64,000 bases of DNA from Emiliania huxleyi CCMP1516 (lineage: Eukaryota). Position numbers and translations under genes: made by a program. Position 1 is the stretch's first letter; every line of letters starts with the position of its first letter. Below, in pieces: positions 2,774 through 39,576 of the stretch. The notes below the pieces were generated by a model. It saw only the letters and a list, made by a program, of their open reading frames with translations. It was not told where the DNA came from and searched no databases. Location of the stretch: positions 62,001-126,000 of the forward strand of contig NW_005202428.1 in NCBI RefSeq assembly GCF_000372725.1, read 5' to 3'.

Positions 2774-5700
2774 ATGAGTCTCGCGTTCGACGAGTATGGG
2801 CGCCCCTTCATCATCATCAAGGAGGGCGAGGCCAAGGGGCGGCTGAAGGGCCTCGAGGCGCAGAAGGCCAACATCCTCGCCGCCAAGGCCCGCCGCACTC
2901 TCCACGCCCGCCGCGGCGCCGTCACCTCTCGCCGCCTCTTGTTGCGCCACACGCCGATTCGCCGCCCTCTCCCCACCCCCCGCCGCCCGCGCAGGCCGTT
3001 TGCAACATCCTCAAGACGTCGCTCGGTCCCAAGGGCATGGACAAGATGCTGCAGTCGCCGGACGGCGACGTGACGATCACCAACGATGGCGCGGCGCCGT
3101 GAGGCGGGAGGCGTGCGGGGCGGGGCGGGGCTTGAGATGACCTCGTCGGGAGCGGTGCGCGTAGGCGCGACGATTCTCGAGCAGATGAAGGTCGAGCACC
3201 AGATCGGCAAGCTCCTCGTCGAGCTCTCCAAGTCGCAGGACGATGAGATCGGCGACGGTACCACCGGCGTGGTCGTGCTGGCGGGCGCGCTGCTGGAGAA
3301 GGCCGAGGCGCTGCTGGACCGCGGGATCCACCCGATGAGAGTGGCGGAGGGCTTCGACCGCGCATGCGCGATTGCGGTGGAGCACCTCGCCTCCATCTCG
3401 GACACCTTCTCGTACTCGCTCGACAACACCGAGGCGCTCGTCGAGGTCGCCATGACCACGCTCGGCGCTCCAAGACTGCCGCCCGCGCTGCGCTCGTCCA
3501 CGAAAGACACGCCCACGACACGCCCACGACGCGCCCCGTAGGTGCGCCGACTCCGCCCTCTCCGCGCTGCGCTCGTCCACGACACGCCCACGACACGCCC
3601 GCACGGCGTGCGCCGTAGGCTCCAAGATCGTCAACCGCGCGCACCGGAAGATGGGGCAGATCGCCGTCGACGCGGTGATGGCCGTCGCCGACTTCGAGCG
3701 CAAGGACGTGAACCTGGACCTGATCAAGATGGACGGCAAGGTGGGGGGCTCGCTCGAGGACACGACCCTCGTGCGCGGCATCGTCATTGACAAGGACATG
3801 GCGCACCCCCAGATGCCGAAGGACCTCAAGGACGTCAAGCTCTGCGTGCTCACCTGCCCGTTCAAGCCCCTAGAAGAAGAACACGGAGGCATGGACCCCA
3901 ACCAGCGCTCGAGAGGACACGTACTCAGCCGTATTCACCCGTATTGAATTCCGCTGTATGCACTGTCTTCGCAGCCCCTCGTACTCACGCGGTGCTCTGA
4001 AGACGCTGCACAGTACCGTCCTCCCGCCCCTCCTGTCGGCGTAATTCACGCATGTCGGCGTACTTCACGCAGGTTCGAGCCCCCGAAGCCAAAGACGAAG
4101 CACAAGCTCGAGCTCGAGTCGGTCGCCGCCTTCGAGGAGATGCAGGCCAAGGAGAAGGACTACTTCACGCAGATGATCCGGCAGGCGCGTGCACTCTCTG
4201 CTACTCACTCTCTGCTAGCCCTCGTGTGCTCACACCACCACACTGCCGTGCCCGAGCCTTGCGTGCATGCGTGCGGCGTCTGTGCGTGTGTGGGAGAGAC
4301 GCTGTTGTCGTCTGCGCGCGGGGCTTCCCGCGGGGGAGCCGAAGACGTATCCCCCCCCCCCCCCCCCTCTCCGGCAGGTGAAGGACGCCGGCGCCAACCT
4401 GGTCATCTGCCAGTGGGGCTTTGACGACGAGGCGAACCACTTGTTGATGCAGAACGAGCTGCCCGCCATCCGATGGGTATGCACGTAAGAGCTACAGACA
4501 CTGAGAGAGAGAGAAAGAGAGAGCTAAAAGTACGAAACCGGTACTACCCGGGGCGGCGTCAGCTTTGTTCGCAGGATCTGTCCACGACACGTCCACGACA
4601 CGTCCACGACACGTCCGCAGGTTGGCGGCGTGGAGCTCGAGCTGATCGCCATCGCGACGGATGCGCGCATCGTCCCTCGCTTCGCGGAGCTGACGGCGGA
4701 CAAGCTCGGTTTGGGAGAGAGGGGGGGAGATGGGGGGGAGAGAGATGGGGGAGAGATGGGGAGATGTGACGGCGGACAAGCTCGGTTTGGGACGGAGGGG
4801 GGGAGAGGGGGGGGGGGGGGATGGGGGGGGGAGATGGGGAGATGTGAGGCCACGCGCACGAGGAGGCGTGAACAGCGTCTGTTCACACCTCCTGCTGTGA
4901 ACAGGCTCGGCGGGCCACGTGCACGAGGAGGCGTTCGGGACGACAAAGGACCGGATGATCGTGATCGAGGGCTGCCCAAACTCGCGCGCCGTCACCGTCT
5001 TTTGCCGCGGAGGCAACCGGATGGTCCTCGACGAGGCGAAGCGCTCGCTGCACGACGCGATCTGCGTGGTGCGCGATCTCCCCATCTCCCCCCCCCATCT
5101 CTCCCCCCATCTCTTCCCCCATCTCTCCCCATCTCTCCCCACCCCTCCCCATCTCCCCCCATCTCCCCCCCATCTCTCCCCATCTCTCCCCCATCTCTCC
5201 CCACCTCTCCCCACCTCTCCCCACCTCTCGCTGCACGACGCGATATGCGCAACGCCCCTCGTGGCCTCTTCGCACCCCCTCATCACACCCTCTCTTCACA
5301 CCCTCTCATCACACCCTCTCCTCACACCCTCCCCCCCCCCTCTTCACACCCTCCGCCGCCGACAGGTGCGCAATCTGATCCGGGACAACCGGATCGTGTA
5401 CGGCGGCGGCGCGTCGGAGATTGCGTGCTCGCTCAAGGTGTGAACAGCGTCTCTTCACACCTCTTGCTGTGAATAGGCGCGTCGGAGATTGCGTGCTCGC
5501 TCAAGGTGTGAACAGCGTCTCTTCACACCTCCTGCTGTGAATAGGCGCGTCGGAGATTGCGTGCTCGCTCAAGGTGTCTGAGGCGGCGGACCAGGTCCGC
5601 ACCATCGAGTTGTCACCATTCTTCTGATTGGTAGGAGTAGCAGCAGCAGCAGCAGTTGTCCTGCTCATCTCATTATTGCCACTATTATTACTACTGCGAC

Positions 5701-6125
5701 TATTGTACTGCAGTATTGCCATTCCCATTACTGTTCTCAACGACCAGGTCGGCACCATCTCCCCATACCTCCCCCATATCTCCCCCATATCTCCCCCATA
5801 TCTCCCCAACAACCAGGTCGGCACCATCGAGCAGTACGCGATGCGAGCCTTTGCGGATGCGCTCGAGCAGACGCCGTGTGCGCTTGCCGAGAACTCGGGG
5901 CTGCAGCCGATCGAGACGGTGGCGTCCGTCAAGGCTGACCAGGTGTCGAGCGGGCGGTCGTACCTGGGCATCGACTGCAACCAGGCGGGCACCAACGACA
6001 TGAAGGAGCAGAAGGTGTTCGAGACGCTCATCGGCAAGCAGCAGCAGCTCATGCTCGCCACGCAGGTTGTGCGCATGATCCTCAAGATTGACGATGTCAT
6101 CGAGCCCGCCGCCTTCAACGGCTGA
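2774..6125 (+). CDS. CCT5: T-complex protein 1 subunit epsilon (CCT5), multi-exon
   Basis: Motifs [102 protein letters not shown] and [15 protein letters not shown] appear in order across the exons. Confidence 0.95.
3860..4072 (+). mobile_element. Introner-like intron, copy 1 (in CCT5)
   Basis: GT...AG intron whose removal restores TCP|FEPPKP. It is collinear with the intron at 38220-38427 (shared CCCTAGAAG start, identical CACGCGGTGCTCTGAAGACGCTGCACA, and a GGCGTACT...CACGYAG end). Confidence 0.7.
5409..5573 (+). repeat. 68-bp tandem unit = 29-bp exon copy + 39-bp hairpin element; a similar 67-bp x3 array lies at 50045-50245
   Basis: GCGCGTCGGAGATTGCGTGCTCGCTCAAG occurs three times, separated by GTGTGAACAGCGTCTCTTCACACCTCYTGCTGTGAATAG. 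Confidence 0.92.
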
Positions 6126-6496
6126 CGGCCTCCCCCTCCGCTCTACCCCCTTCTGACTCTCCCGCCGCCGCGACCGGGCGCAGGGTGGCGGGGGGGCGCC
6201 GCCCGCGCCGCGCGAGCGAGACGACGGGCAGCGCCGCGCACACGCCCCTGCGAGCGAGCGCGCGAGGTACGGTTCTCTGGAGAGAGACTCAAACAGCGCG
6301 GTGAGGCCCCGCGAACAGAGGTTGAGAGAGTCTATCAGTGTGCTCTATATCGGAGTATAGTATGACTACTGAGTACTGTAAGAGGGGCGGGCCTCCTAGA
6401 TATCGTCATACGAAGCTGCTGCTGGGAGCTCAGGAGCGCTGCTGCCGTGCTCGAGACCTCGAGTGCGACTGAGGCATGGCTGCACTGAGGTGGTGG

Positions 6497-6593
6497 TGCA
6501 CTTGGAGCACTTGTGCGTTGTGGAGTGCAGCCATCAACCTCACATCCAGGGCCGGGGAGCTAAGAAGCGCACCCAGCGGGCCCCTCGGATGAT
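6497..6593 (+). repeat. Dispersed repeat D, second copy at 53385-53469
   Basis: Shared TGCACTTGGAGCACTTG...CATCAACCTCACATCCAGGGCCGGGGAGCTAAGAAGCGCACCCAGCGGGCC. Confidence 0.88.
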
Positions 6594-7198
6594 CGTCGAG
6601 ATCCTATCGGGGTTGCGGGCAAGAGAGCCCTAGCCCCCCTGGGGGGGGTGCGCGTTCGCAGGGAAGGGGCCGTAAAGTAAACACGGGTCTCCGAGAGGGT
6701 CTTCACTTGGCTCCACATATACATGTCGAGTCTCTCGAGGTCTCGCGGATGGGCTACCATGGAGGCCTGCTGTGTGACGTGTCCATTAGCTCCGAGAGTA
6801 GGTAGGGTGGCGTTTTGCCGCAGTTACCCGGGACACGGAGCCCCGAGGCGCTCGAGCAGCTCGCGAGCAAGCGGATGGGCTACCGCGAGGTGCTCAAAGG
6901 CGTCCTAGAGGGCGTCAACATCCTCCAGCGGCAAGCACAAGCTCTCACTCAGTCTTATGTTGACGAACATTTATGAATGATCACTTGATTGAGCACATTA
7001 ACGGGGGCCCGACGACCCGACCCTGCGCGCCGCCGCCGCAGCACACACAACTCACAAGCGAACCGAGCGACGGGAGGAGTACGTGACGCAATGGGGCTCT
7101 ATCGTTCCCTCCGCCGGAGGGAGATTGGCCCTGACCCGTCTTTCTCCTTGCTGGACCTAGAACGGCCGCCAGCAAGGAGAAAGTTGTCCCGGTAGCGC

Positions 7199-8350
7199 CT
7201 AGTCACTCCCACCGAGCCTCTCGCCCGTCGCTTCGTTCACGTCTTGCTCTTGTCCCGCCTGCTCCACTTCCTCCGCCGCTGCCTCCTCCACCACCGCCAC
7301 CGGCACTCCCTGCACTGGCGGGAGGTTGCTGCTTCGCACCTGGGGCACGACTGGGGCTCTGACTCTGAACATAGGCACCGTGGCCTCGACGTCGTCTGTC
7401 TCTGAATCCACCTCCTCGTCCATCTCCGCCTCGCGTTGGTCCAGGGCCGCCGCCCGTGCGTCGAGGCGGGCGGCCATCGCCACTAGGTGCTCCAACCGTT
7501 GGTCCAGACTCGCGCTTTGCTGCTCTTGCAACAACTGTGTGGCGCTCTGCGCGGTGGCGGGCTGGGCGGTGGCGGGCTGGGCGGGGGTGGGCTGGGCGGC
7601 GGCGGGTTCTTGGCATCGCTCGAGAGCCTCCAGCCTCGCCTCGTGCTCCGCTTGCTGCTCGACAACAGAGTCGAGGCGGGACTCGAGACATTTACCAGAC
7701 ATTTCCACGTGCCTGTTTGGCGTCTGCTCTGAGGAAGGCAGGCGGGCAGTAAAAGCGGAGAAGGATAGCAGGACGGCAATGAAGGTGGTCAACGTCACGC
7801 AAAGCGCAAGGATTGCCCCAAATTGGCGACCCTCGTCAGGTGGGAGGGGCGCGCACAGTGTTTGGACGACGACGGTTGCGCCGCGGAGGATAATCTCGGG
7901 GAGAAGATTGCCGTGCTTCAGCGGCAATGCGAGATGCATGACGAGGGCCATGCTGAGGCAGAATGCCACCCATGCTTGACTAAACGGATCGTTGACGCTG
8001 AGCGCGAGGAGAACCTTGTTCGACTGCAGCTGCAACGCCCAGAGTGGTGCGGAGCCGGCCGTCAGGAGCTCTGTCCGACGACGCAGGTACCACTCTGGCT
8101 TATTTGTTGCTGCCATGCCCAGTGCGAGCACAGCCACCTGTCCCGCCCTGCTAAGGAGAATCTCGCCCATGCTGTGGAATGCAAGCCCGCCACGAAGCCG
8201 CGCGAAGACCAGGAGCTGCGCGGGGCCGAAGACAACCGTCGCGGCAGCAAACAGGGCGAGCATCGTCCGATCCGCCAGATGCGACGCGCGAGAGGGGTCG
8301 CGTGGCTTCGCGGAGGCATTAGACATGTGCCTGGCTGCCCAGGGCGCCAC
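7199..8350 (-). CDS. Hypothetical membrane protein with C-terminal coiled coil and acidic tail
   Basis: Intronless 383-aa ORF with several hydrophobic segments, then heptad-like LESRLDSVVEQQAEHEARLEALE and AQPAT repeats. No family recognised. Confidence 0.45.
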   Translation of the reverse strand: MAPWAARHMSNASAKPRDPSRASHLADRTMLALFAAATVVFGPAQLLVFARLRGGLAFHSMGEILLSRAGQVAVLALGMAATNKPEWYLRRRTELLTAGSAPLWALQLQSNKVLLALSVNDPFSQAWVAFCLSMALVMHLALPLKHGNLLPEIILRGATVVVQTLCAPLPPDEGRQFGAILALCVTLTTFIAVLLSFSAFTARLPSSEQTPNRHVEMSGKCLESRLDSVVEQQAEHEARLEALERCQEPAAAQPTPAQPATAQPATAQSATQLLQEQQSASLDQRLEHLVAMAARLDARAAALDQREAEMDEEVDSETDDVEATVPMFRVRAPVVPQVRSSNLPPVQGVPVAVVEEAAAEEVEQAGQEQDVNEATGERLGGSD

Positions 8351-8907
8351 TGGCGTAGGTACAGGGGAACGTCAGGGGCGAGGGTGTGCACGCCCTCAGC
8401 CCGGATTCACTATAGCCGTTTCCCGTTCTTCTCATTAGTTCGCTTCCCACAAACATCCCCTTTTTCCGATTTATCCGAGATCGGCGAAGGGTCGCATCTT
8501 CCAATAGGCCAAACCAAAAACGCGATGTGTTTCTGTGAGTAGTTTCACGGAATCTGTGTTTGCGCGAATGCACTGCGTGCGTGCGTGTGTGTGCGGGGCT
8601 CCACATCGTCTGCCATGGTCAGAACGGCGCTGCGACCCTGGTGCGTGACCACAAGGGCTCGAAGGCTAGAAAGATTGACGTCACAAGATGATGAGGGTTA
8701 CACAAGGACAGCCAGGCTACGGTCATCATGGGAGGATGTAGATGTAGGTTTGAGTTCACACTCTCCAACAGGGCGGCTTCTGTCGAGGTCTCGCGAAAGA
8801 AAGAGAGAAAGAAACGGAGAACCCAAGGGAGAGGTCTCGCGATCGGCTTGGCAAGGGTCTCGCGCGCTTTTATTTCTCTCGATAGCTGAGGCCCCTGAGG
8901 CCGCCGC

Positions 8908-10113
8908 GTGATCGTCGACGGCCTCTCCTCCAAGCCCGAGCTCAACGGCAGCCGTGGCATCGCGGTCGGCTTCGACGAGGACAAGGGCCGCTACACAGTC
9001 CGGCTCGATGCGGGTCCGACCATGGCGCTGAGGCCGAGCAATCTCACCGCGGACGGGTCGGCCGACGGCGGTGGCGGCGGCGGTGGTGGTGGCATGCCCG
9101 GCTTTGGAGGCGGCATGCCTGGCTTTGGAGGCGGTGGCATGCCGGCGGGCGCTGCCGCGCAGGCAGCGCAGGCGGCGATGGCACGGCTGCAGGCGATGCT
9201 GCCTCCGGGCGTCTCGCTAGCGCAGGCTGGCGTGGCGATGCTCCTCCTCCTCTACGTTGCGCCGCGCGTGCTCGGCCTCCCACTCCCGCTCGTCCTCTGT
9301 GGCGGCGGCGCAGCCGCGTTCGTGTACCAGTCCGCGCGCGGCGGCGGCGGCGCGAGAGGCGTGGCGGATGGGCTGCGGCGAGGCCTGTCGCGTGCGGCTG
9401 CGGCGGCCGAGGCGACGACCGGGCAGCGCGTGAGCGAGGCGCAGGCGGCCGCCCTCCTCCTCGCTGGCGGCTACATGCTCTGGCGCTTTGTGCTCCGCCC
9501 GAGCGGCGCCGGCGCCGGCAGAGGAGGAGGCGAGAGACACTCCCAAGACGCTGCCCTCGCCCCTCGCTGGCTTGCTGCGGCCGCTGCTTGCACATGCCCG
9601 CAGCTCAGCCTCCCAGTGCGCGCCCCAGTGCGCGCCCACTGACGCCTCCCCGGGGGTCAGGCGAGGGCGGCTTCGGCGACACAGAGTTCGCGGCGTACGA
9701 CAAAGGGTGGAACGATGCGCTCGAGAAGCGAAAGTACGCGCCCGTGCTCGACCCGGTGGCCGCGGAGCCGCGCGCGTCGTCGTCGCGGTGGGGCCTTGGC
9801 TCCCTGTTCCAGGAGAGTCCGCCGCCGCCGCTCGCCGCTCCCTCCGCCTCTGCCTCTCCCTCTGCCTCTCCCTCCGCCTCTCCCTCTGCCTCTGCCTCTC
9901 CCTCTCTCTCTCTCTCTCTCCCCACCCCGCACTCACGCACCCGCCCCCACCCGCGCAGCTCGCCATGGCGGGCACCCTGATCTACCAGATGGGTGCACGG
10001 GCGGGCAGCCGTGAGCGCCGCGAACGCCATCGCCGGCGCACGAAACATGAACCCGATGACGCTCGTCTTCCACCTGCTCAACATGCTGTACGGTTGGGGT
10101 GGCCGCTCACTAA
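8908..10113 (+). CDS. Protein with KOW-like 'GLxSKPELNG...GRYTVRL' domain and TM segments (5' end unclear, possible frameshifts)
   Basis: The domain IVDGLSSKPELNGSRGIAVGFDEDKGRYTVRL...LRPSNL is common in algal proteins and is followed by a Gly-rich linker and hydrophobic helices. The last exon needs frameshifts near 10012. Confidence 0.5.
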
Positions 10114-14223: not shown

Positions 14224-14397
14224 AGGACAACCCCCCAAGAGTTGTTCGCTTCGCGTTACCCCTTCGACGCCAGGTTAGCCAGCCCTCGAGCGCCACGCAG
14301 CGTTCGCGCCAGTCGCCAGTCGCTACGCTGCACGCTTCCAGCCGGCCATCGCTGCTGGCGCGCGGTCGTTTGCGTGCTACCCTTCCCCCACGCTGCG

Positions 14398-17628: not shown

Positions 17629-20600
17629 TCATGCGGCGCGCGGGAGCGCCCCCTCCTCCTCGAAACGGCGCAGGTAGGTGCGGAGCAGCGCCGGCGTCAC
17701 CGTCGGGCAGGGGTGGCCACGCTCCGCCAGGTGGGCCATGTGTGCCTTGGAGCCCGTCGAGCCGAACGAGGGCGGAGCTGCCTTGAGAGCGCCGAGCAGC
17801 CCGCGCAGAGGGTTGGGGTGCGGCGCCGTCTCGGGCTCCGCCTCCAGCGCTGCCTGCAGCACGGACAGCCCCGGGCCCTCTCGGGCAATCTCGGGTCCTC
17901 TCGGGCAATCTCGGGCCGGTTCTCGGGCCGATCTCGGGCGATCTCGGGCCACTTCCTCCAGCGCGGCCTGCCGCTCGGCCAGCCTATATCTCCCCATATC
18001 TCCCCATATCTGCCTGCAGCTTGGCCAGCCACGCCTCGTAGCTCGGTGCGACGGGCACGTCGAGCTCCGTGAGAAGGTCTTCGTACGGAAGCGAGGCGCC
18101 GTTGTCGAGAGTGAAGCAGGGCGTCTCGCAGCGCTCGCGAGATGCCGCCCCGCCGGCCTCCTGAGTGGCGATGCCCCCGATGGCGCCCGCCACCCAGTCC
18201 ACCGGAGACATGTCCACCCGAACGCGCATGTCTGGCAGCGGCGGAGCGAGGCCGAGCAGTCGGAAGCCAACCAGGTACCGGTTGAGTGAGTCTCCAATGT
18301 TGCAGTCTCCCGTCACAGAGTGGCCGCTGATGGCGCCCGGTCGGAAGATTGAGTAGCGCGCCGGCGCGCCGGCGGAGCGGGCGGCGGCGTTGGCGTTCTC
18401 AATCAGCCGCTCGGCGACCCACTTGCCTTGCACGTACCCGTTGGCACCGTCCACCGCCGCCATCTCGATCCGTGGCGGCGCCTGCGCGTCGTGGCAGGCT
18501 CGCCGTCCGCAGACGCCGGCGGTGGAGACAAATGCGACGTGCACCGGCTTACGGTTGGCAGCCTCCAGGCCGTGCGCGAGCCGGATCGCACGAACAAGAG
18601 AGCCGACGTTCGCCTCCTTCAGGCCGGCGTACGCGGTGGCGTGGTTGACGGCGGCGGCGTTGTGGATCACCAGACGCACCGAGGCGAGGCTCGCCGCTAC
18701 CACCCCATCAGAGAGCCCGAACCCTGGCAGCGTCACGTCGCCGGCCAGGCAGCGCAGCTTCGGCGAGCGAGCGGCGTCGCTCCACACTCCCCGCGCGCGC
18801 AAGGCGGCAGAGACGCGCTCAGCGGCCGCGGCGTCGGAGGCGGCGCGGGCAACGCAGACGACCGCCGGGCCTTTGTCGGCGGCGAGGAGGGAGGCGAGCA
18901 GGTGTGTGCCGAGGAAGCCCGTGGCACCGGTGAGAAGGAGGGCGTCGGCCTCGCCAAGCGGCACCGCGGGCCCGAAAGGCACTCCTCCCATCCCGGCGGC
19001 CAACTCGGGCGGCACCGCCGCCTCCGCCTCCCAGTCGTACGCCGCCGCCGCCACTGCCTCGGTCGTCTGCACGAGGTTGAGGATGGCCGCCATGGTGACG
19101 CCGCGCAGCAGCGCCTTTGGCGGCACGCCGCACCCGAACCGCTTGTTCAGGCTGCCGGCGAGGCGCGCGGCGGTGAACGAGTCCAGCTGCAGCGGCTTCG
19201 CGCCGAGGCCAGACACGTCGACGCCAAGCAGCGACCCGACCGCCGCCTCCACGGCACACATGTCGGCGGCGTTACCGTCGCCGGCGTCCGTTGTGGCGGG
19301 CGGCGCGAGCCGCGTCAGCACGCCGTCCACAAAGCTGAAGGCGGCGCCGGCGTCGGCGGCGGAGAGCTTGGGCATGCCGAGCATGGCGGCGAGCTTGACG
19401 CGCTGCACCTTGCCCGTCGGCCCTTTCGGCACCTTGTCTGCGTACACGATCGCCTCGGGGAGCCACTGCATTGAGAGCTCGCCGGTGTCGAGCCCGAAGC
19501 GATTCAGCTGTGCAAGGCTGACCTCTGCGCCGGGGTCGAGGACCGCGATGGCGACCACCGACTCACCAAGCTCCTCGTGTGGCGAGCCGAAGGCGAAGAG
19601 GCTCGACACTCCGGGGCAGCGAAGCAGCACATTGTCGATGGCGACGGGCGCAATCTTTTCGCCGCCACGGTTGACCTGCTCCTTCTTGCGGCCGGTGAGG
19701 AAGAGGTAGCCCTCCTCGTCGAGATAGCCGAGGTCGCCCGTGCGGAAGAAGCCGGATGGCGTGAAGGACTCAGCGTTGGCGTCGGGCCGGTTGTGGTAGC
19801 CCTAAGAAGGAAAGGAGTGACGTGATTGTGCCTCTCGAAGCGGGCGGTCGCGAAGGTCTGCGCCTTGGTGACGTTGCGGCCGCGCACGCTCACCTCGCCC
19901 ACCTCACCGTTCGGCAGCGCCGCCTCGCCCTCCTCCGGGAGGATTGCAATCTCGACGTTGGTCCCCTTGCCCACCGAGCCCGCCTTGTGCGGCCCGCGGC
20001 TCGGCAGCGGGTTGGAGGAGATCTGGTGGGCCGCCTCTGTCATCGCATACGCCTCGAGCACCGGAGCGCCAAACTCCTTCTCGAGCGACTGCAGGACCGA
20101 AGGCGGGAGCGAGGCGGAGCAGGACCGGATGAAGCGCACCTGCGGCCGGCCCGCGGCCGCATAGCTGTCCAGCCCTTTGAGCAGAAGCTGCTGCATGGTC
20201 GGCACCGCCGTGTACCAGGTGGCGCCGCACGCCGCAATGTCGCGCCAAAAGATCTCGACGCGGAACCCGGCGCAGTTGGCCGGCAGGATGACCTCGCCGC
20301 CAGAATAGAGGGTCGAGAAGAGTGCCGACATGAGGCCGTGCACCTAAAAGAGAATCGTGCGAATCACAAGGGCGACAGCTAAGAAACACCGACATCGGCC
20401 CGGGCACATGAAAGAGCGGCATCACCAGGTAGCACTTGTCGGCGGCCGTGAGGTCGTAGGTCGCCGTGATGTTTGCCTACAGGAGAAGGGCGTGCGCCTC
20501 AAAAACGAAAGTGTCAACCGGCTGTCCGCCGCCGATGAGGTTGCCGTCGTCGCGAGCATGTTTGCGTGCGAGAGCGGCACCTTGTGAGGAATCACCCGAG

Positions 20601-21775
20601 ATCACCCGAGATCGCCCGAGATCACCCGAGATCACCCGAGATCGCCCGAAATTGCCCGAGACTGCCCGAGATTGCCCGAGATCGCCCGAGACTGCCCGAG
20701 AGCGCGTGGTGCGAGAGGGGCGCACCCCCTTCGGCTTGCCCGTCGTGCCGCTGGTGTGAAGAAACAGGGCCGTGTCTTCCGGCTGCGCCTCGGGGATCGT
20801 CACGCCGCCGTCGGCCACGGCGCATCGCGCGCGCGCAGCGACGCTCGTGCCGCTGGCCGACGTGGCGACGCCTATCCACGGCTCGAGGCGTGAGAAGAGA
20901 CTCGACACAGCTCGCATCGGCGGCCACATCTCGGCTGCATCTCGGCTGCACCTCGGCTGCACCTCGGCTGCACCTCGGCTGCACCTCGGCTGCACCTCGG
21001 CTGCCTCTCGGCTGCAACCCGGCTGCACCTCGGCTGCACCTCGGCTGCCTCTCGGCTGCACCTCGGCTGCCTCTCGGCTGCACCTCGGCAGCACCTCGGC
21101 CGCCTCTCGGCTGCCTCTCGGCTGCATCTCGGTTGTATCTCGGCTAGCCCTCTCCGAGCGTGGCGACGCCAACCTTGGCCGCAACCTCCTCGGCGAGAGC
21201 GTGGCCTTCGGTCGGCACGACCAGGAACTTGGACGAGATGTTGAGCATGTCGTACCTGCGTGGACACGTCAGGGAAATGTCCGCGACTGTTCCGGGAGGC
21301 GGCGCGGGCGGATTGGGGCGGTGTCGCACTCGAACTCGGCGGCAGCGTACGACGCGTTGAGCGGCGCGGCGGTGGCGCCGAGCCACGTGACGGCGAGGAA
21401 GGAGATCACCGACTCTATCTGAGGCGGGTGGAAGGCCGGGCCGAGGTGGTGTGGCGAGGCGACGGCGGCGGCGGTGGTGACAGTCTCTGGAGGAGCAGCG
21501 AGGCACAGCAATGGCCGCCGCGCTGTCCGCTTGCGTTGCCGCGGCAGCAGAGTGGCCGCCAGAGCTGTGACACGCACGCGGCGAGGGAGGCGGACCTGGT
21601 TCCGGAAGCAGAGCGAGACCACGTCACCTCGCAAGACTCCGGCTCGGGCTAGCGCGACGGACACGGCTTTGACGTCGGCGCGCAGCGCGCCGCGCGTAAA
21701 GACCGGGCCCTCCGGCGTCACGCGGATGGCGGGCGCGGCGTCGTCGCCGGCCAGCAGGCGTTCCAAAGTCGCCAT
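17629..21775 (-). CDS. NRPS-like A-T-R carboxylic acid reductase (oxalate-CoA-ligase-like adenylation domain + carrier protein + thioester reductase)
   Basis: A domain: ALFLHTSGTTGKPKGVPL, MPLFHVHGL, TWYTAVPTM, RFIRSCSASL, EAYAMTEAAHQ, FFRTGDLG, NRGGEKI, PKGPTGKVQR. T domain: LQLDSFTAARL. R domain: LLTGATGFLGTHLL, IHNAAAVNH, GYVQGKWVAE, RPGAISG. The end of A, T and most of R lie in one continuous reading frame (17984-19630). Confidence 0.88.
20929..21145. repeat. Intronic 10-11 bp tandem repeats (CTCGGCTGCAC family); relatives at 13039-13112, 20591-20700, 43128-43198, 57990-58075 and 58273-58415
   Basis: Directly visible degenerate arrays, located in or next to inferred introns. Confidence 0.9.
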
Positions 21776-22834
21776 GTGTACCCCGCGTCTGTGTCTGAGG
21801 TTCGCGGTCGAGGCGCAAGGTGCCTCTTTATATTACCCAAAAGCTAGGCTACACAACGCCCTCTATGTTGGGTCAAGGCGGGCGCCTAGAAGAAAGCGCC
21901 GCCCCCCGAGGGGGAATCCCACCCGTACCCCGAGCCCCCGTCGAAGAGCGCGTCGAAAGCGTCGTCGCCTTCGTCGTACTCCTCCGCGTCAAAGCACCGG
22001 ACCGGCTCCCCCCGGCCGTGCTCCCTTGCCCAGCGCATCTGCCGAACATGCGCACGCTGCTCCTCGCGCGCCCTCTCCTCCGCGGCGCGCGGCGTCCACC
22101 CGGTGGACGCCAACAGCGACTCGAGCGTCGCGCGATAAATCGCCTCGCCTTCCTCGCGTGATACCACCTCGCCCGCCTCCTTATCTCTTTTCCGCGCCCG
22201 CCCCCGCAAGGCGCGCGATACACGCAACACGACTAACTGACGGATCCGCTCCTGACAGTCGCACGCGCCGCAGTCTTTGTTTGAAGTTAAAAGTCGAATC
22301 AGAGCGCCGTCGGCGCTGTCCCTCGTTTTCCTCCCACGGACCGCCCGTCCGGGACCGCTCCGGGACGCACGCCGGCGAAGCACCATCAAGCTGCTGTACG
22401 GCCCCGGCATCGCCTTCCCAGGCTTAGCTAGACTGAGAGATATTGTGGACATGAAAGATTGGTTTCTACAATATTACACTGACACTTTACCTCCCAGAGC
22501 TCGTCCCGGTCCGTCACGGCCATCCTCGGCCTCCGGAGGGCCCCCGGCCGCGGCGCGGTGCGGCGGCGTCACAAATCCGACCACAGAGCACCGAGCCGCG
22601 CGCCCCAAACGACCCAGGCGGCGAGTAGTCGTCCTCGAACCTTCGTCATGTAGTCGCCCATAGTTAGCGCCCGTCCGTCCCCACCTCCGTCGCCGCGCAA
22701 ATGAAAAAGAAAAAGAAAAAGAAACGAAAAGAAAAACGAAAGCAAATCCATTGCGTAAACGGCGTCACAAAGCCCGCCGGTTTTGATCGACAATCGTGAG
22801 ATTGACCGCCGTCGACCAGAGATATCTCTCCACC

Positions 22835-30400: not shown

Positions 30401-30628
30401 CGAACGTGTGTGCTCTCTGTCTGTCTGTCTGTTGTTTCGGCTAAGTCGTTTTGTACCGGATTTCAATGTTAGTGGCAAAACCGCGGAGCCGAAAATGGCG
30501 TTTAATTTCGCGCACCTGCTGTCCGCCGCCTGCGGCGGCGCTCCGCGCCGCTTGGGGCGCCTGCGGCGCCCCTGGGCGCGCTGCGCGCGCCTGTTTTGGG
30601 GGGGCTACCAGCACCGAAAAAGTGCCGG

Positions 30629-30664
<36 letters not shown>

Positions 30665-31734: not shown

Positions 31735-32829
31735 TTGCCCCTCATCGCCATCTCGACGCCTACTCGAGTACACCGGGGGCCTGCTGGCGAAACTCGGCTC
31801 TCGGGGCAGAGCCGTGCAATGTCAGCGTCTACCTGCACTTCGCTGTCAGCAGCAGGCAGCAAGTGCGCGGCGAGCGGCGGCTACCGCCTCTCACCCACCA
31901 GCGGCACCCAGGGCGGCAGCTTCATCGACTGCTACACCGACTGCGCCGCCGCGGCGGCGTGCGAGGGCTTCAGCTACGGCGAGAGTGTGGGCAGCACGTC
32001 GTTCTGCGTCACATGCAACAGCAACGACGCAAGCGCTCTGGACGTGGACGCCAGGGTGACACACTACGCCATGTGCGACCCGCCGCCCGCGCCGCCGCCA
32101 CTGCCGCTGCCTCCACCGCCTGACGCAGAGGGCCGCATCATGCCTGCCTCGGTGCGCCAAGACCCTCATATTCACTTTGCGCACGGGGGGAAGGCTGATT
32201 TTCGGGGCCGCAACGGCGTCTTGTACAACTTCTTCTCCGCCCCATGGTTGGCCGTAAATGTCAAGACTGAGGATGCAACATTTCTGCTGCATGGTGGCAA
32301 GCTCACTGTCCACGGTAGTTTCATAACCGAAGCGCATATTGTCGTCCGCGCTAGATCCCCGACGAATGCCTCAATGTGGGCAACCGAGCTAAATGACGAC
32401 AACTGGGGATGGAAGGTCATCAACGGGTCGTGCAAGCGCCGTCACTTCCAATTTGGAAGGTGGGGGACCAAACAATGTGGCGAACTCAGGATTGAGATGA
32501 CGTTTTCCACCGCCACTTTCACTCTCGGGAACTGGTCTATCGTAGTGCAAGGTAACCGTGTCTATGACAGGATCTCGGGCCCAAAACACCGCCTGGATGT
32601 CAGTTTTAGTGGTAGGGGCGATGCCGCCGCGCGATCACTTCCGCATGGGATCATTGGGCAGTCATTCTCTTCTTTGACGCCACGGTATGGCCTCCTGGAC
32701 AAGTATCCCGACGCAGGCAATTTTACAACCGTGGCCATGGCTGAGGGTGCAATCGAGGGGGAGGCTGCTTTGTACGAGATGAGGTCCCCATATTCTACCC
32801 ACTTTGCCTTCTCACGCTTCGACGAGTAG
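31735..32829 (+). CDS. Cys-rich (PAN/apple-like) segment + Pro linker + 'DPH..AHGGKADFRG' vWD-like C-terminal domain
   Basis: DCYTDCAAAAACEGFSY...CVTC is followed by poly-Pro, then QDPHIHFAHGGKADFRGRNGVLYNFFS...HGSFITEAH...PHGIIGQSF...AMAEGAIEG. This architecture resembles an expanded haptophyte extracellular family. The start is uncertain. Confidence 0.65.
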   Translation: MPLIAISTPTRVHRGPAGETRLSGQSRAMSASTCTSLSAAGSKCAASGGYRLSPTSGTQGGSFIDCYTDCAAAAACEGFSYGESVGSTSFCVTCNSNDASALDVDARVTHYAMCDPPPAPPPLPLPPPPDAEGRIMPASVRQDPHIHFAHGGKADFRGRNGVLYNFFSAPWLAVNVKTEDATFLLHGGKLTVHGSFITEAHIVVRARSPTNASMWATELNDDNWGWKVINGSCKRRHFQFGRWGTKQCGELRIEMTFSTATFTLGNWSIVVQGNRVYDRISGPKHRLDVSFSGRGDAAARSLPHGIIGQSFSSLTPRYGLLDKYPDAGNFTTVAMAEGAIEGEAALYEMRSPYSTHFAFSRFDE

Positions 32830-33373
32830 GACGCTGCTACGCATTTGGCTTCTGCATCTGCCTTGCACGAGGGTCCACTGCAAGTGTCCTGGACCTAGCA
32901 TCGGCCTAGCACGTCTACCGGCACGCCGACGGCAGCAGGTGACAGGCTCCTTTACTCATATTGCCGGCGTCGGCGAGGGAGTCGCGTGGATGGCAGACAT
33001 GCGCGCAGCTTGCAGGCGACGGGAAGGCGGGCGCGCTCTCCGGTCCCAGCGTCCGCGTTCGCACGGCTCACTCACTCACTCAACATTCCCCTCGCTCCAC
33101 CGTGGCTGGCCTCGTGTCCGCGTCCGGGGCACCTTCGTGGGCGAGCTACTTTCTACTTCTTTTTTGGCTCCCGTGGTGCACCTGTGTATGCTGTGTTAGT
33201 GCCAGTGCGCGCCAGAGAGAGAGATTGTTAGCAATACCAAACACTTCGTGTCAGAGTTTTTGTTTTTTACTTTTGTCGCGCCGATCCCGTGCCTGTGGTG
33301 CGGTGAGACGGCGCCCGAAAATTCTTTTCCAGTGTACCTGTGTTAGTGCCAGTGCGCGCCAGTCCCGTGCCCA

Positions 33374-33737
33374 GACCCCGACTCGGACGACGGTGACGGC
33401 AAGCCCGACTACTTCGACCCCGACTCGGACAGCGACGGCAAGCCCGACTACCTCGACCCCGACTCGGACGGCGACGGCCTGCCTGACGCGCTGGATCCCG
33501 ACTCGGACGGCGACATCCCCAACTCGGTGGAGGGCTCCGTGGACGGCGTTTGCATCCCCGGCTACCTCGATCGACCCCGACTCGGACAGCGACGGCAAGC
33601 CCGACGCCGAGGAGGGCGCGGCCGACAGCGACAGCGACGGCATTCCCGACGCCAAGGAGTCCAACACCGCCGACACGGACGGCGACGGCCTGCCTGACGC
33701 GCTGGATCCCGACTCGGACGGAGACGGCATCCCCGGC
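33374..33737 (+). pseudogene. Fragment of a thrombospondin-type-3-like (DxDxDG) calcium-binding repeat protein
   Basis: About eight DPDSDxDGxPD repeats with a frameshift near 33570 (CTCGATCGACCCC). No evident start or upstream exon. Confidence 0.6.
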
Positions 33738-33814
33738 TGTGTTAGTGAGTACGCCACATGAAGGACTCCATACCCGAAAAAAAAGCGAGAAATCCGAGCA
33801 TCTGGCCCGCTGGG

Positions 33815-33927
33815 TGGCGGCAAATGATCGCAGTGGGCGTCAGAAGACTCGTCCTTGCGCGAGGAGAGCTCGATAGACTCGAGGGGCCAAGATATGCTGC
33901 GAGGAGGGCGGAGCTGCGCCGAAAGGC
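33815..33927 (+). repeat. Dispersed repeat E, second copy at 61190-61308
   Basis: Shared TGGCGGCAAATGATCGCAGTGGG...CGTCAGAAGA...GCGCGAGGAGAGCTCGATA...CTCGAGGGGCCAA...GCGCCGAAAGGC. Confidence 0.88.
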
Positions 33928-35331
33928 AAAAGAATCTAGGGTACCATACTTCCGGGCCGGTGTGCGGGGAGCGAATCTTAACGACCGCCCCAGAAGCTTT
34001 CTGAGCGCACCAATCGGGCCAGGATCATCAGCATATGTCCCCTCCACAACATCGTGGGCGTTTGAGCGTGAGTATGTATGTATGTAGAAAGATGAACAAC
34101 AGTCAGGCTCGGACTGGACACCAACGCGGTATGGGTGGACGCGGGACAGATGATGGCGACACGCACGAACGACACACAGACACAAACAAGCTCACAAGAC
34201 ACACAGCCAGCTGATCAGCTGGCTGCCACACACCCTGAGTTGGCGTACACATAACTCAAGGCCGCGCACCCCCCCTGTCGTCTCCCCCAGCCAAGTCGCC
34301 GAAGGAACAAACAAGGGCACAACAACACAACAGACGACAGGGGCGAGCGCGTGAGGCTGGAGCAGTCTTGCTCGTCCTCTAGCAATCTCCGCCGACCGCG
34401 AGGCCGGACTAGACCGTGTGTGGGGTCATGTGAGGTGTCTCTGGTCACTCTCCTCAGGGGCTAGCCGCCAGCCGCTAGCCCTATCTCGCACTCACTGGCG
34501 GTGACAATTCTATGGGTGAGCGTATGCGAGTAGAGGCGCGTGAGCCGATTCTTGATCGCATGCCATTGGCATATAACTTGGCTTGGCGTGCGACCTCAGC
34601 GCGCCCGCCGTCAGCTCGACGGGGCGCGCATGTCAGCGAGAGGTTTGCCGGTAGAGCGATCCCGGTCTTGTCGAACGCGAGCCCCACGCCACGGTTGCCA
34701 GCCGTGCCTTCGCGAGAGTCGCCCTCGAGCCGCGTCCCGTCGGCACTACCCTCGAGTGCGTGTCGCTTTGGTTGGCGACACCCACTCGTCGAGGACAGTC
34801 CGGCCGACGGGAGCCTGTCGCGCGCCGGCGACGAATGCGGCGTGCGTGTGTGCCTTCGAAGCGACGATGGCACGACCACCGCCCTGCTTCCTGACCGGGC
34901 AAGGAGGGGCCTACTCCCGTTCCGCGAGGAACAGGAGGTCTCCCCCCCTCCCCCGGCCTGACGCCTGAGCAGCGACGGGTGGACGGCAGCCCCTTCGAGG
35001 TTGGCAGGCGAGCCAGTTCAGTCTCAGCCACACGCCCCCCGCGCCTGTACTCCACCAAGTCAAGGTGAAAAGATCTTATCAGCCAGCTGGGCAGGGCAGG
35101 CGGGCAGGCGGGCGGGGTCAGGGAAGACTATTCCAAGACTCGCGAGAGATGCCACACGCCCCTCGCGCGAGGCAGTTCGCAGAGCACCTCCTACCCACGC
35201 GAGGTTAGCATCCACCCCTCGCAAGACTATGTATGTATGTAGGTAGGTATGGGGGCGGCGTGAGTTGACCACACCATACCCCGCAAAAAGTCCGAACGCA
35301 GGGCTGGCTTGGCTGACCTCTCTCTCGACAG

Positions 35332-38300
35332 ATGAACGGCACGAATTGCCCGCCTGCGGCCGGCAAACTGCTCGTGGACGGACAGGACGCGCGGACGAAG
35401 CAGGAGATCCTCCAGATGATCGTCCAGTACCTGCACGACGAGGGCTACACTGCGGCGGTGAGCCTGCGCGCCTCTCCCGCCCCAAGCCTCCGAGGCTTGC
35501 AATTCCTGAGGCTGTCCCACGCCTCGACCGCTGCTCCGCTCGCCGCCACGCCGGTGCCACGCCACGAGCACGCCCACGACGCGTCCACGACGCGTCCTTT
35601 GCCAAACCGCGGTAGGTCGCGACGGTGCAGGACGAGGCCAACGTGCGCTCGCTCGATGCGCAGCGCGCGCGGACGGCGGTGCGGCGGCTCCGGCGCGCGG
35701 TGCTCGACGGCGATTGGCCCGAGATGGAGAAGCTCGTGCCCCGTGCCATCGCCGGCACGTGCGAGCAGAAGGCCTGCCTAGACGCCGTGCACCGGCTGCA
35801 GCTCCCAGTTGGTTCCTGACAGAATGGCGGTGCATGGAAGGTGTTCCTGTACGCCGCGTACCGGCTGCAGTTTCTCGAGCTGCTGGACGGAGGCGAGCAG
35901 CACAAGGCGTTCACGCAGCTGACGAAGCGGCTCAAGCCACTCGAGAGCTGCGCGCCGTCGCCCGCAGAGTTCCGGGACCTCTGCTACCTCCTCACCTGCT
36001 CTGTGAACGGCGTCTATTCACACCTCCAGCTGTGAACAGGTTCCGCGACCTCTGCTACCTCCTCACCTGCCGCTCCGTGCACGAGGTGTGGGCAGACGCC
36101 GGGCGCGGCGTGCGCGGGATGTCGCGAGTCCTGACTGCTGACTGAGAAACCAGGTGGTGCGGGACTGGGAGGGGGCGGCGGCGGCGCGCGAGTCACTGCT
36201 GCAGCAGCACGAGGTGTTTCACACACTCCTTCACACACTCCTTCACACACTCCTCCACACACTCCTTCACACACTCCTTCACACACTCCTTCACACACTC
36301 CTTCACACACTCCTTCACACACTCCTCCACACACTCCTTCACACACTCCTCCACACACTCCTTCACACACTCCTTCACACACTCCTTCACACACTCCTTC
36401 ACACACTCCTCCACACACTCCTTCACACACTCCTTCACACACTCCTTCACACACTCCTTCACACACTCCTTCACACACTCCTTCACACACTCCTTCACAC
36501 ACTCCTCCACACACTCCTTCACTCCTTCACACACTCCTTCACACACTCCTCCACACACTCCTTCACACACTCCTTCACACACTCCTTCACACACTCCTTC
36601 ACACACTCCTTCACACACTCCTTCACACACTCCTTCACACACTCCTCCACACACTCCTTCACACACTCCTTCACACACTCCTTCACACACTCCTCCACAC
36701 ACTCCTCCACACACTCCTCCACACACTCCTTCACACACTCCTCCACACACTCCTTCACACACTCCTTCACACACTCCTTCACACACTCCCACACCGCTCA
36801 CCCACGCGCACTGGGCCATGCACTTTTCATGCCGTGCGGCTCCTGTCGTCCAAACGTGGAGTCGCGAGGGACAGCCCGGCCCTTGCCCCACCACCTCGTG
36901 CGTTTACCTTACCTTACCCCACCTTAGGTGCTTCTGGAGCTGCAGCAACCTGAGGCAGCCGAAGAGGTGTGTGTGTGTGTCGCGCCGTGCGCGCGGCGGC
37001 GGCGGGGGGGGGGGGGGGGGGGGGGGGGCTCTTCCCGAGGGCCCCCCTCTTGGAGCCCCCCCCCCCCCCCCCAAAAAGCTGCAAACAACCCCGGGGAAAG
37101 ACGGTTATACCGCCCCCCCCCTTCCCCCATGCGTTAGAGGGCAGGCGGGAGGCGGACTCCCATCACCTCGGTACCTGGCCCGTGGACGGTGGAGGGAATC
37201 TTACCAAAAGTGCNNNNNNNNNNNNNNNNNNNNNNNNNNNNNNNNNNNNNNNNNNNNNNNNNNNNNNNNNNNNNNNNNNNNNNNNNNNNNNNNNNNNNNN
37301 NNNNNNNNNNNNNNNNNNNNNNNNNNNNNNNNNNNNNNNNNNNNNNNNNNNNNNNNNNNNNNNNNNNNNNNNNNNNNNNNNNNNNNNNNNNNNNNNNNNN
37401 NNNNNNNNNNNNNNNNNNNNNNNNNNNNNNNNNNNNNNNNNNNNNNNNNNNNNNNNNNNNNNNNNNNNNNNNNNNNNNNNNNNNNNNNNNNNNNNNNNNN
37501 NNNNNNNNNNNNNNNNNNNNNNNNNNNNNNNNNNNNNNNNNNNNNNNNNNNNNNNNNNNNNNNNNNNNNNNNNNNNNNNNNNNNNNNNNNNNNNNNNNNN
37601 NNNNNNNNNNNNNNNNNNNNNNNNNNNNNNNNNNNNNNNNNNNNNNNNNNNNNNNNCTCGGCTAGCTCCTCTGCGACTACTCGCTGCCGCTGCTGCCGAA
37701 CCGCGCCCGCCTCTGCCTCCGAGGCCACAGGGGCGGAGTCAAGAGCGTCGCGTGGCTGCAGGTCGGCGGCGGCGGCGGCGCCGAGACTACTGGTGTCTTA
37801 TAGGCTTGAATCCTTCAGATGGGTATGCTACATATCTGTGCATGCATTATGCAGGCGAGCTGCTCGTGTCGGGCTCGAACGCCCCCACCGTACGGCTGTG
37901 GGAGGCTGGCCCGCTTGCGGTGTTTGTGCGGTGGGGGGGTGGGGGGGGGGGTGAGGATGAGCTTGCCAATGCCACTCTAGTGAAGCTCTCGCAATAGGTT
38001 GGGCCGCCTGCGGTCGCCGCGGGTGGCAGCGACGCGCGCGAGTCTGCGGGCGGCAGCGAGTCTGCGGGCGTGTCTGCGGGCGGGTGCGGCTGGGCCGGGT
38101 CGGTGTGCGTGCTGCAGCACCCGTCTCGCGTGTGGGCGGTCGCCACGCGGGGCGGGGGGGGAGGTGGCGTGCCGCTGCTCGCTTCGGCGTGCGCGGACGG
38201 CCGGGTGCGGCTGTGGGACGCGCGCGACCCTAGAAGCGGAACACGTGCTCTTGCACTCCGACTAGCGCTCCAGAGGACATGTACATGTACATGTTGTGCA

Positions 38301-39576
38301 TGCACAACATGTATTCGGCCGTATTCAGCTGTAGTCACTGTATTCCGATCCGTTGTGTTCACGCGGTGCTCTGAAGACGCTGCACAAGACCGTCTCCCCG
38401 CCCTCAGTTGGCGTACTCAGCACGTAGGCGCGCGACGCGGTCGCGAGCTACGCCGCCGGCGGCGTAGCGGGCAGTGCGGGCGTCGGCGCGGGGCTGCGGC
38501 TAGGTTCGCACGAGGGTCAGGGTTAGGGTTAGGGTTAGGGTTAGGGTTAGGGTTAGGGTTAGCGGCGCGGGGCTGCGGCTAGGCTCGCACGAGGGTTGGG
38601 GTTAGGGTTAGGGTTAGGGTTAGGGTTAGGGTTAGGGTTAGGGTTAGCGGCGCGGGGCTCAGGCTAGGTACGCACGAGGGCGACGGCTACACGGCCGGTC
38701 ATGGTTGATGAGTGAATTCATTCCTTGACAGGCTCGCACGAGGGCGACGCGTACACGGTCGGGCTTCACCCGAGCGAGGCCGAGTTGCGAGGAGGTGCGG
38801 GGTACGGTGCCTCAGGCGTTGGGTTGAGTCGTTGGCGAGCTCGCTCCTAGGCGGTCGGGATGAGCGGCGGGTACGACGCCGCGGTGCGGCTGTACGATCT
38901 GACGACGGGCGCGCTGCTGCGATCGCTGGTGGGGCACGAGCGCAGCGTCTCGAGCGCCGTGTTCAACTCGGCGGGCAACCTGATCGTGTCTGGCGGCAAG
39001 GACGCGACGGTCCGCTTCTGGGACGCGCGATCCGGTCTCTGCCTCAAGTGCTTCGAGAGCCCGCTGGGGGAGGTGGGCTCGGCCGTGGCCTCGCGCCCAG
39101 CGGCGTCTCTTCACACCTCTGAGCCCTGCCACTGCTGTGAACAGGTGACCTCGGTCGACCTCGCGCCCAACGGCGTGCACCTTGTCTCGTCGTCTAAAGA
39201 CAACGCGCTGCGGCTGTGGGACGTGCGCACCGCCAAGCCGCTCCTCGTGCTCAAGGGGCACCAGAACACCGCGCGCAACTTTGTGCGCGCGCGCTTCGCC
39301 AAGGGCGGCACCCTCGTCGCCTCCGGCTCAGACGACGGCGGCGCGTTCCTCTGGCACGCGAGCTCGGGCGAGCTCGCCGCTCGGCTCGGCGGGCACACGG
39401 ATGTGGTGTACGACACGGCGTGGAGCGAGCCGCTCGACCTCATCGCCACCGCGTCGCACGACGGCCTGATCAAGCTGTGGGGGTGGGACGCCGCCGCGCC
39501 GGGTAGCGTCGCGGGCAGCGCGGCGGCGGGGTGGGACGGGCCGTGGAGGAATCGGCCCGCCGGCGGCGCCGTGTAG
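35332..39576 (+). CDS. LisH-CTLH + WD40 repeat protein, multi-exon, spans a gap
   Basis: LisH segment EILQMIVQYLHDEGY and CTLH segment LRRAVLDGDW...FLYAAYRLQFLELL. WD repeats include SGGYDAAVRLYD, GHERSVSS...SGGKDATVRFWD, SSSKDNALRLWD and GHTDVVYD...ASHDGLIKLW. Confidence 0.85.
36217..36793 (+). repeat. 12-bp tandem array (CTTCACACACTC)n inside intron 36214-36927
   Basis: Directly visible array of about 48 units with occasional T>C variants. Confidence 0.95.
37214..37656. other. Assembly gap (others at 43781-44599, 45729-46329 and 62616-63082)
   Basis: Runs of N. The flanking sequence is homopolymer-rich and looks low quality. Confidence 1.
38220..38427 (+). mobile_element. Introner-like intron, copy 2 (in the WD40 gene)
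   Basis: GC...AG intron whose removal restores LWD|ARD. It is homologous to 3860-4072, and GCGCGCGAC is duplicated at the intron start and the next exon start. Confidence 0.7.
38523..38647 (+). repeat. Interstitial (TTAGGG)n tracts inside an intron
   Basis: Two tracts of about 6-7 TTAGGG units at 38523-38562 and 38602-38647, within intron 38504-38731. Confidence 0.92.

What the first reader, a model, noticed from the sequence alone, without database searches (positions are those of the whole stretch)
3860..38427. The same ~210-bp intron occurs in two unrelated genes (introner-like element)
Seen: CCT5 intron 3860-4072 and WD40 intron 38220-38427 align end to end (CCCTAGAAG..GAACACG, AGCGCTC.AGAGGACA.GTAC, a 27-bp identical block, GGCGTACT..CACGYAG). 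In both, the first 9-11 nt copy the start of the next exon (GTTCAAGCCCC vs GTTCGAGCCCC; GCGCGCGAC vs GCGCGCGAC). Established: in known introners a target-site duplication supplies one splice site and the element supplies the other. Inference: this is a mobile intron family where the duplication gives the GT/GC donor and the element gives the AG.
Basis: partly seen in the sequence, partly recalled or inferred. Interest (0 to 1): 0.76.

Follow-up and report, generated by a model that had tools for sequence, protein, structure and literature searches.

The report
Intron-making transposon family in a coccolithophore
A roughly 180-base DNA element sits as a removable intron in dozens of unrelated genes of the bloom-forming alga Emiliania huxleyi, flanked by a short duplication of the gene's own sequence, and is likely the remnant of a cut-and-paste transposon that created new introns where it landed.

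Summary
Confirmed and extended. Introns 3860-4072 (CCT5) and 38220-38427 (WD40) are 71% identical (E 2e-17), and a third copy lies at 44807-44616 (-). The host is Emiliania huxleyi or a very close relative. RNA contigs of two studies skip exactly 3860-4072; transcript-type proteins support the WD40 junction. A metagenome scan gave 33 loci, and 30 unique sites with both ends were curated. The element (~181 bp) starts CCTAG, ends YAG-G, has 13/17 terminal inverted repeats and supplies the acceptor. The duplication is G+8 nt, not 9-11. It is best read as an 8-bp target duplication with an nTnnnnAn bias (hAT-like), with the donor (GC 24, GT 4, GA 2) taken from host sequence. Copies are old (median 77% identical); present-day mobility and absence in relatives are not shown, and no transposase was found. 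Introners, this geometry (Polarella class 1) and 37-70-nt E. huxleyi families are in print; I found no entry for this ~190-nt family. The scan noted a different haptophyte family of this kind before. Verdict: new member of a known kind, probably thousands of copies, and a possible contributor to this alga's GC-donor majority.

The parts
3860..4072 (+). Copy A: intron 4 of CCT5 (TCP-1 epsilon), phase 2, GT..AG, 213 nt
   Evidence: RNA contigs of X9 and X12 skip exactly this stretch; Cpn60_TCP1 profile positions 141-208 before and 210-246 after
3860..3868 (+). Intron-side copy of the duplicated host sequence (G + 8 nt; 8 of 9 match to 4073-4081); supplies the GT donor
3869..4073 (+). Element body of copy A including the inferred terminal G (4073), which becomes the first exon base; carries a 20-nt duplication near its 3' end that another allele lacks
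   Evidence: HMM hit E 1e-46; X6 contig lacks 20 nt at 4043; L031
3985..4012 (+). 28-nt block identical in copies A and B (27 nt of it used as the search pattern)
4073..4081 (+). Exon-side copy of the duplication (G + 8 nt)
38220..38427 (+). Copy B: intron in a WD40-repeat gene, phase 0, GC..AG, 208 nt
   Evidence: junction RLWD|ARDAV in P0156 and P0025; WD40 hit upstream
38220..38228 (+). Intron-side duplication (9 of 9 match to 38428-38436); supplies the GC donor
38229..38428 (+). Element body of copy B including terminal G; imperfect inverted repeats at about 38229-38245 and 38412-38428
   Evidence: HMM hit E 4e-51; terminal-repeat comparison on the family consensus
44616..44807 (-). Copy C: older copy (75% to consensus), predicted GC..AG intron of 192 nt; element 44797-44615; duplication 8 of 9 with one extra base
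   Evidence: HMM hit E 1e-15, 6e-27 with the wider model; sequence; splicing not shown; a SANTA-domain ORF lies upstream on the same strand

Best explanation
The two introns are copies of one ~181-bp element that ends in the splice acceptor and is flanked by a G+8-nt duplication of host sequence, most likely a non-autonomous cut-and-paste DNA transposon (introner; hAT-like targeting inferred) that spread in the past and is probably inactive now. Inferred mechanism: a transposase supplied in trans bound the imperfect 17-bp inverted ends (CCTA...TAGG) and inserted the element with an 8-bp staggered cut. An insertion is spliced out without changing the mRNA only when it is in one orientation, the base before the duplication is G and the first duplicated base is C, T or A. 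Then that G plus the first duplicated base is the donor, the element's second- and third-last bases are the AG, and its last G replaces the exon G lost to the intron. Other exonic insertions would have been purged. Shown: family membership, boundaries, duplication, splicing of copy A. Inferred: 8 versus 9 bp, transposase type, selection, age.
For: Family: 33 metagenome loci hold the exact 27-mer; 6 are alleles of another locus, leaving 27 loci; 30 unique sites with both ends were curated. Duplication: G-to-element spacing is 9 at 23, 10 at 6 and 8 at 1 of 30 sites; positions 3-9 match at 160 of 210 against 68.7 +/- 7.0 (max 98) in 10,000 permutations. At protein level, 4 of the 5 clusters whose read-through showed both element ends repeat the same 3 residues on both sides. 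Ends: the first 17 nt match the reverse complement of the last 17 at 13 positions only when the terminal G is counted; next best internal match 11. Target bias: T at position 3 (15 of 30, expected 6.1, p 2e-4) and A at position 8 (12 of 30, expected 3.8, p 1e-4) under a codon-phase-aware null. These are mirror positions only in the 8-bp register, the nTnnnnAn pattern of Hermes and hobo (PMC10368747; PMC3276498). The base after the G is never G (0 of 30, expected 10.8). Splicing: for A; for B. In ACC, profile positions 306-371 and 382-438 leave room for exactly the 32-nt exon between two copies. Four of 6 neighbouring pairs leave only 32-49 nt between copies (p 3e-4 under a rough uniform null).
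Against: No transposase among 62 of the window's 396 long ORFs scanned, and no match in viral contigs. The terminal CC is not the YA start I recall for hAT ends. A position-weight palindromy test preferred 8 bp (r 0.44) over 9 bp (-0.43), but another register scored 0.74, so it is not decisive. Seven of 30 sites are spaced 8 or 10; L012a shows only 4 of 10 matches; L019, L029 and L013 show no clear duplication and were left out, as were 3 truncated loci. All sites have the G on both sides, so 8+G and 9 cannot be separated directly. Eight of 12 other introns in the same two genes also carry boundary duplications without this element, so the genome has other ways to make such footprints. Only sense frames were scanned with Pfam; there was no antisense control. 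No empty allele was seen.
Confidence: 0.8

Rival explanations
1. Same introner, but mobilised with a 9-bp duplication that starts with G (Mutator-like), the element ending in AG and carrying one unpaired C at its left end.
For: The simplest reading of the sequence is a 9-nt repeat at 23 of 30 sites; every site has G on both sides.
Against: The inverted repeat is in register only with the terminal G. The T/A target bias is symmetric only for 8 bp. No C bias opposite the invariant G (C at 11 of 30, expected 10.1). Ends are short and begin with C, unlike Mutator ends as recalled.
Confidence: 0.12
2. Not a transposon: introns arise by break repair or RNA reverse-splicing with a short duplication, and the shared filler is copied from existing introns or homogenised by gene conversion.
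For: Eight of 12 other introns in CCT5 and WD40 carry boundary duplications; element ends are often re-duplicated around 10-11-nt tandem arrays; strict sense orientation and clustering of copies fit RNA-based or local copying.
Against: Duplication length is nearly fixed and the element start is invariant; inverted ends and a palindromic target bias are not expected; copied introns would carry their own donor, whereas here the donor differs by site and matches the downstream exon.
Confidence: 0.06
3. An ordinary short repeat inserted secondarily into pre-existing, ancient introns.
For: Some copies lie in complex introns (L029, L019, L013). Orthologous intron positions were not tested.
Against: At 30 sites the element ends exactly at the acceptor and starts 8-10 nt after the donor, and those nt copy the next exon; nothing of a host intron is left over.
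Confidence: 0.02

Closest known systems
Polarella glacialis introner-like elements, class 1 (TAGG end) and classes 6/8/10 (bioRxiv 10.1101/2020.10.14.339549; passages read)
   Same: Class 1 in its minor orientation takes the donor from the base before the duplication plus the first duplicated base, and the acceptor from the element's second- and third-last bases: the geometry inferred here. Classes 6/8/10 have 8-nt duplications with G[ACT] donors.
   Different: Dinoflagellate host; those classes form introns in both orientations, whereas only one is seen here; sequence relationship not tested.
Symbiodinium and Aureococcus introners (PMC9860276, section 7 read; Huff et al. 2016 not held, recalled)
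   Same: [quoted passage not shown]
   Different: Symbiodinium duplication is 4 bp; the Aureococcus example adds 12 nt to the mRNA, whereas this element leaves the mRNA unchanged.
Catalogued E. huxleyi CCMP1516 introner families (PMC9860276 supplement sd01; PMC12130899 supplements sd02, sd07)
   Same: Same species. Family fam24 is listed as 'co-opt 5', carry 3'' with '10bp terminal direct repeats'.
   Different: Listed families average 37-70 nt with 5-45 seed members (653 elements in all in 2022), classed unknown or LTR, with duplication and inverted-repeat fields '?' or 'N'. This family is about 190 nt with mostly GC donors.
hAT transposons Hermes and hobo (PMC10368747; PMC3276498; passages read)
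   Same: Imperfect 17-bp inverted ends, 8-bp target with nTnnnnAn bias, short repeated internal motif (a hexamer at 7 places in the consensus, mostly 10 nt apart).
   Different: No transposase, only 181 bp, ends begin CC, and it acts as an intron.

Membership tests
Introner | Similar introns in at least four non-paralogous genes | tested here: met
   CCT5, WD40, ACC, AAA ATPase, mitochondrial carrier, DEAD-box helicase, DNA polymerase subunit B and others
Introner | Similarity reaches the intron boundaries but not the exons | tested here: met
   HMM spans from 8-10 nt after the donor to the acceptor; masked flanks match only between alleles
Introner | Precisely spliced out | tested here: met
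   RNA joint for copy A in two studies; transcript-type proteins for copy B; other sites by reading frame only
Introner | Gained recently: absent at the orthologous site in relatives or alleles | not testable with these tools
   No outgroup genomes held; no empty allele in 2 DNA runs; read-through protein P0172 shows a diverged copy at the same CCT5 site
hAT DNA transposon (non-autonomous) | 8-bp target-site duplication | tested here: inconclusive
   G+8 at 23 of 30 sites; 8+G favoured by end symmetry and target bias but not separable from 9
hAT DNA transposon (non-autonomous) | Short terminal inverted repeats | tested here: met
   13 of 17, first 4 nt perfect
hAT DNA transposon (non-autonomous) | nTnnnnAn target preference (Hermes/hobo type) | tested here: met
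   T 15 of 30 (p 2e-4) and A 12 of 30 (p 1e-4), phase-aware null, 36 cells examined
hAT DNA transposon (non-autonomous) | Termini YA..TR (recalled, not from a call) | tested here: not met
   Termini are CC..GG; so it works like a hAT but is not filed as one
hAT DNA transposon (non-autonomous) | Autonomous partner with the same ends and a hAT transposase | not testable with these tools
   No genome held; none among 62 window ORFs scanned
Mutator/MULE | 9-11-bp duplication and long inverted ends starting with G (recalled) | tested here: not met
   9 bp is possible, but the ends are 17 bp and start with C
Novosib / Zisupton (8-bp duplication, recalled) | Terminal match to a Repbase member such as Novosib-1_EmiHux | not testable with these tools
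   No Repbase sequences held; the name appears only as a hit for a different, ~66-nt family
Helitron | No target duplication (PMC12130899 passage) | tested here: not met
   A duplication is present
SINE / non-LTR retroelement | Variable-length duplication, 3' A or repeat tail, RNA-gene head (recalled) | tested here: not met
   Near-fixed length and no tail; no Rfam match at E<=1 over 3800-4130

The most novel reading that the evidence does not exclude
Most introns of E. huxleyi are fossil introners: this uncatalogued, roughly nucleosome-sized, hAT-like family alone made thousands of introns, and because such elements take their donor from GC-rich exon sequence they, and not genome GC content alone, explain why GC donors outnumber GT in this alga.
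Probability: 0.3. Interest if true: 0.8.

Novelty: new member of a known kind. Interest (0 to 1): 0.56.

Why it matters
E. huxleyi is known for a majority of GC donors (56-65%) and some GA donors, put down to high GC content (PMC4028052, passages read). This family's donors are 24 GC, 4 GT and 2 GA and are borrowed from exon sequence, and 8 of 12 neighbouring introns also show boundary duplications, so introner insertion becomes a testable explanation. At 3 copies in 61.7 kb (10-142 per Mb) the family may be far larger than the 653 elements catalogued for this genome. It may have been missed because gene models misplace GC donors: the public WD40 model P0154 drops VRLWD by using an upstream GT. 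A profile of the element would correct gene models, and its fixed ends give a handle to find the transposase.

Tried and rejected
No whole genome is held, so there is no census and no orthologous-site test. Viral contigs: 0 matches. Rfam: 0. Four short motifs of the element are absent from the 2022 supplement sd01, which was cut when stored and may hold no sequences; its SI PDF was unreadable, and files 13-14 of the 2025 supplement were not searched. Huff et al. 2016 is not held. The exhaustive protein-representative search was still queued at the end. Rejected: an 11-nt duplication with a TAG start (intron-side base 10 is C regardless of exon); Helitron; SINE. The idea that a 189-nt, stop-free copy is selected to tolerate retention in phase 2 is unsupported: only 3 of 30 sites are both in frame and stop-free. 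Summed contig depth over the core (X6 23,013 vs 24-50; X5 2,572 vs 6.8) shows a high-copy repeat but is not a copy number. One search had an off-by-one error and one search stopped early; replace them.
Full report
Observation. Window 3860-4072 and 38220-38427 align end to end at 71% identity, E 2e-17; the score of 83 compares with at most 25 for 267 random window 200-mers. The exact shared block is 28 nt. A profile built from 18 copies finds a third copy at 44797-44615 (-) and nothing else in the window.

Host and genes. A CCT5 exon is 99% identical to an Emiliania huxleyi CCMP1516 model. Named CCMP1516 models for both genes are ten accession numbers apart, each listed with a longest contig of 3,018,814 bases. 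The window is therefore E. huxleyi or a very close relative. No whole genome was held.

Splicing. RNA contigs from runs X9 and X12 (two studies) skip exactly 3860-4072, GT..AG; the DNA runs X5 and X6 carry the element at this site and show no such joint. For copy B, P0156 (an MMETSP transcript) and P0025 read RLWD|ARDAV, which requires the GC donor at 38220; the public model P0154 instead lacks VRLWD, having used a GT 15 nt upstream. Those transcripts come from close relatives, so they show the mature junction, not excision in this strain.

Family. An exact 27-mer finds 33 loci in marine metagenome contigs and none in viral contigs. Six loci are alleles of another locus or of A or B. I curated 30 unique sites with both ends (3 in the window, 27 in loci). 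Left out: L019, L029 and L013 (no clear duplication or scrambled ends) and L007, L018 and L033 (cut by the contig end). All 56 profile hits at E<1e-3 lie on the strand of the primary copy; only the secondary copies are informative for this. Removing the intron gives a plausible sense frame through each junction, chosen by eye among three phases. Ten sites have Pfam support at E<1e-3 among 45 flank pieces scanned, in sense frames only. A protein search with one open frame of the element returned 19 read-through clusters; 5 matched known loci by their upstream flank, and 4 of the 5 clusters with both ends visible repeat three residues across the element. Median intron length is 190 nt.

Anatomy. 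The element starts CCTAG and ends YAG followed by G at all curated sites. The spacing from donor G to element is 9 (23 sites), 10 (6) or 8 (1). Positions 3-9 match the next exon at 160 of 210 against 68.7 +/- 7.0 by permutation. The element's first base is C at 26 of 30 sites regardless of the exon, so the duplication ends at nine. With the following G counted as element, the ends form a 13-of-17 inverted repeat, CCTA..TAGG. Donors are GC 24, GT 4, GA 2, and the second base is never G. T at position 3 and A at position 8 are enriched under a codon-phase-aware null (15 vs 6.1, p 2e-4; 12 vs 3.8, p 1e-4; 36 cells examined). They are mirror images only if positions 2-9 are the target, which gives nTnnnnAn as for Hermes and hobo. 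A correlation test of palindromy favoured 8 over 9 bp but ranked another register higher, so the 8-bp reading is favoured, not proven. A hexamer recurs seven times inside the consensus and once inverted in the left end; a role as transposase-binding repeats is inference.

Mechanism (inferred unless marked). Host X-G-N8-Y becomes X-G-N8-[element ending AG-G]-N8-Y. Splicing from the host G to the element's AG (shown for A) restores X-G-N8-Y, using the element's last G. Only one orientation and only G[CTA] sites give a clean intron, which explains the one-sided G without a mirrored C. A spliceosome that accepts GC and GA donors (PMC4028052) widens the usable sites. Four of six neighbouring pairs leave 32-49 nt between copies, which fits local hopping or insertion into nucleosome linkers. 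Linker bias is reported for introners and linker-periodic methylation for this alga (PMC9246332); neither was tested here.

Age and number. Non-allelic copies are 77% identical at the median and 91% at most (20 copies), whereas allelic loci are 96-99.9% identical. Read-through protein P0172 shows a diverged copy at the CCT5 site. No empty allele was seen in two DNA runs. The burst is therefore probably old. Three copies in 61,670 nt give 49 per Mb (95% range 10-142), about 1,700-24,000 for a 167.7-Mb assembly (size), extrapolated from one window.

Against. No transposase among 62 of 396 long ORFs scanned. CC ends differ from hAT ends as recalled. Eight of 12 other introns in CCT5 and WD40 also have boundary duplications: five with at least 7 of 9 at the 5' end, two with at least 8 of 9 at the 3' end, and one 9 of 9 offset by 2 nt. 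Either several introner families or another duplication process act in this genome. Intron positions in outgroups could not be examined.

Comparison with print. PMC9860276 (section 7, passages and supplement sd01) and PMC12130899 (passages and supplements 1-12) list E. huxleyi introners of 37-70 nt, one with 10-bp terminal direct repeats and the same co-opt-5', carry-3' label. None is about 190 nt, and none of the 35 RefSeq gene rows has a number close to the protein accessions of these two genes (mRNA and protein numbers compared, a rough check). Their pipeline starts from annotated introns, which misplaced GC donors could defeat. The bioRxiv paper 10.1101/2020.10.14.339549 (passages) describes the same donor and acceptor geometry for Polarella class 1. 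Searches that showed no paper on this family: (listings only). PMC11282704 and PMC4455052 were read as passages. Unseen supplements and Repbase may hold the element. The scan's own notes hold no look-alike sequence and one different haptophyte family of this kind.

Verdict. It works like a hAT-type non-autonomous transposon but is not filed as hAT. New member of a known kind; interest 0.56, higher if introners prove to explain the GC-donor majority of this alga.

Noticed in passing
window 3089-3164, 3465-3618, 4185-4377, 5069-5365, 5438-5573, 5595-5816, 38504-38731, 39073-39144: Eight of 12 other introns in CCT5 and WD40 begin with a near-copy of the next exon or end with a copy of the previous exon, without this element.
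   Followed up: partly
window 5438-5573, 4865-4904, 39100-39144: A ~37-nt intron unit recurs here and in several loci, at 5438 in tandem with a 29-nt exon duplication; possibly one of the catalogued 37-nt families (not tested).
   Followed up: no
L005, L008, L011, L019, L020, L028, L029: 10-11-nt tandem arrays sit inside copies of the element, with the element's own first ~15 or last ~35 nt duplicated around the array.
   Followed up: partly
window 38504-38731: WD40 intron holds telomere-like TTAGGG arrays alternating with repeated copies of the exon-exon junction.
   Followed up: no
L017 / L022 and L030: Two alleles of one site have GT and GC donors; at L030 the intron copy reads GT where the exon copy reads GA, suggesting donor conversion after insertion.
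   Followed up: no
L025 and L012: Copies interrupt conserved motifs: the Walker B of an FtsH-like AAA ATPase (predicted GA donor) and the DEAH motif of a helicase.
   Followed up: partly
L005, L006, L012, L032: Pairs of copies create micro-exons of 32, 35, 49 and 33 nt.
   Followed up: partly
window 17987-21832 (-): NRPS-like gene with AMP-binding, carrier and terminal reductase domains.
   Followed up: no
window 46672-47373 (-): SANTA-domain ORF upstream of copy C on the same strand; possibly its host gene, broken by assembly gaps.
   Followed up: no
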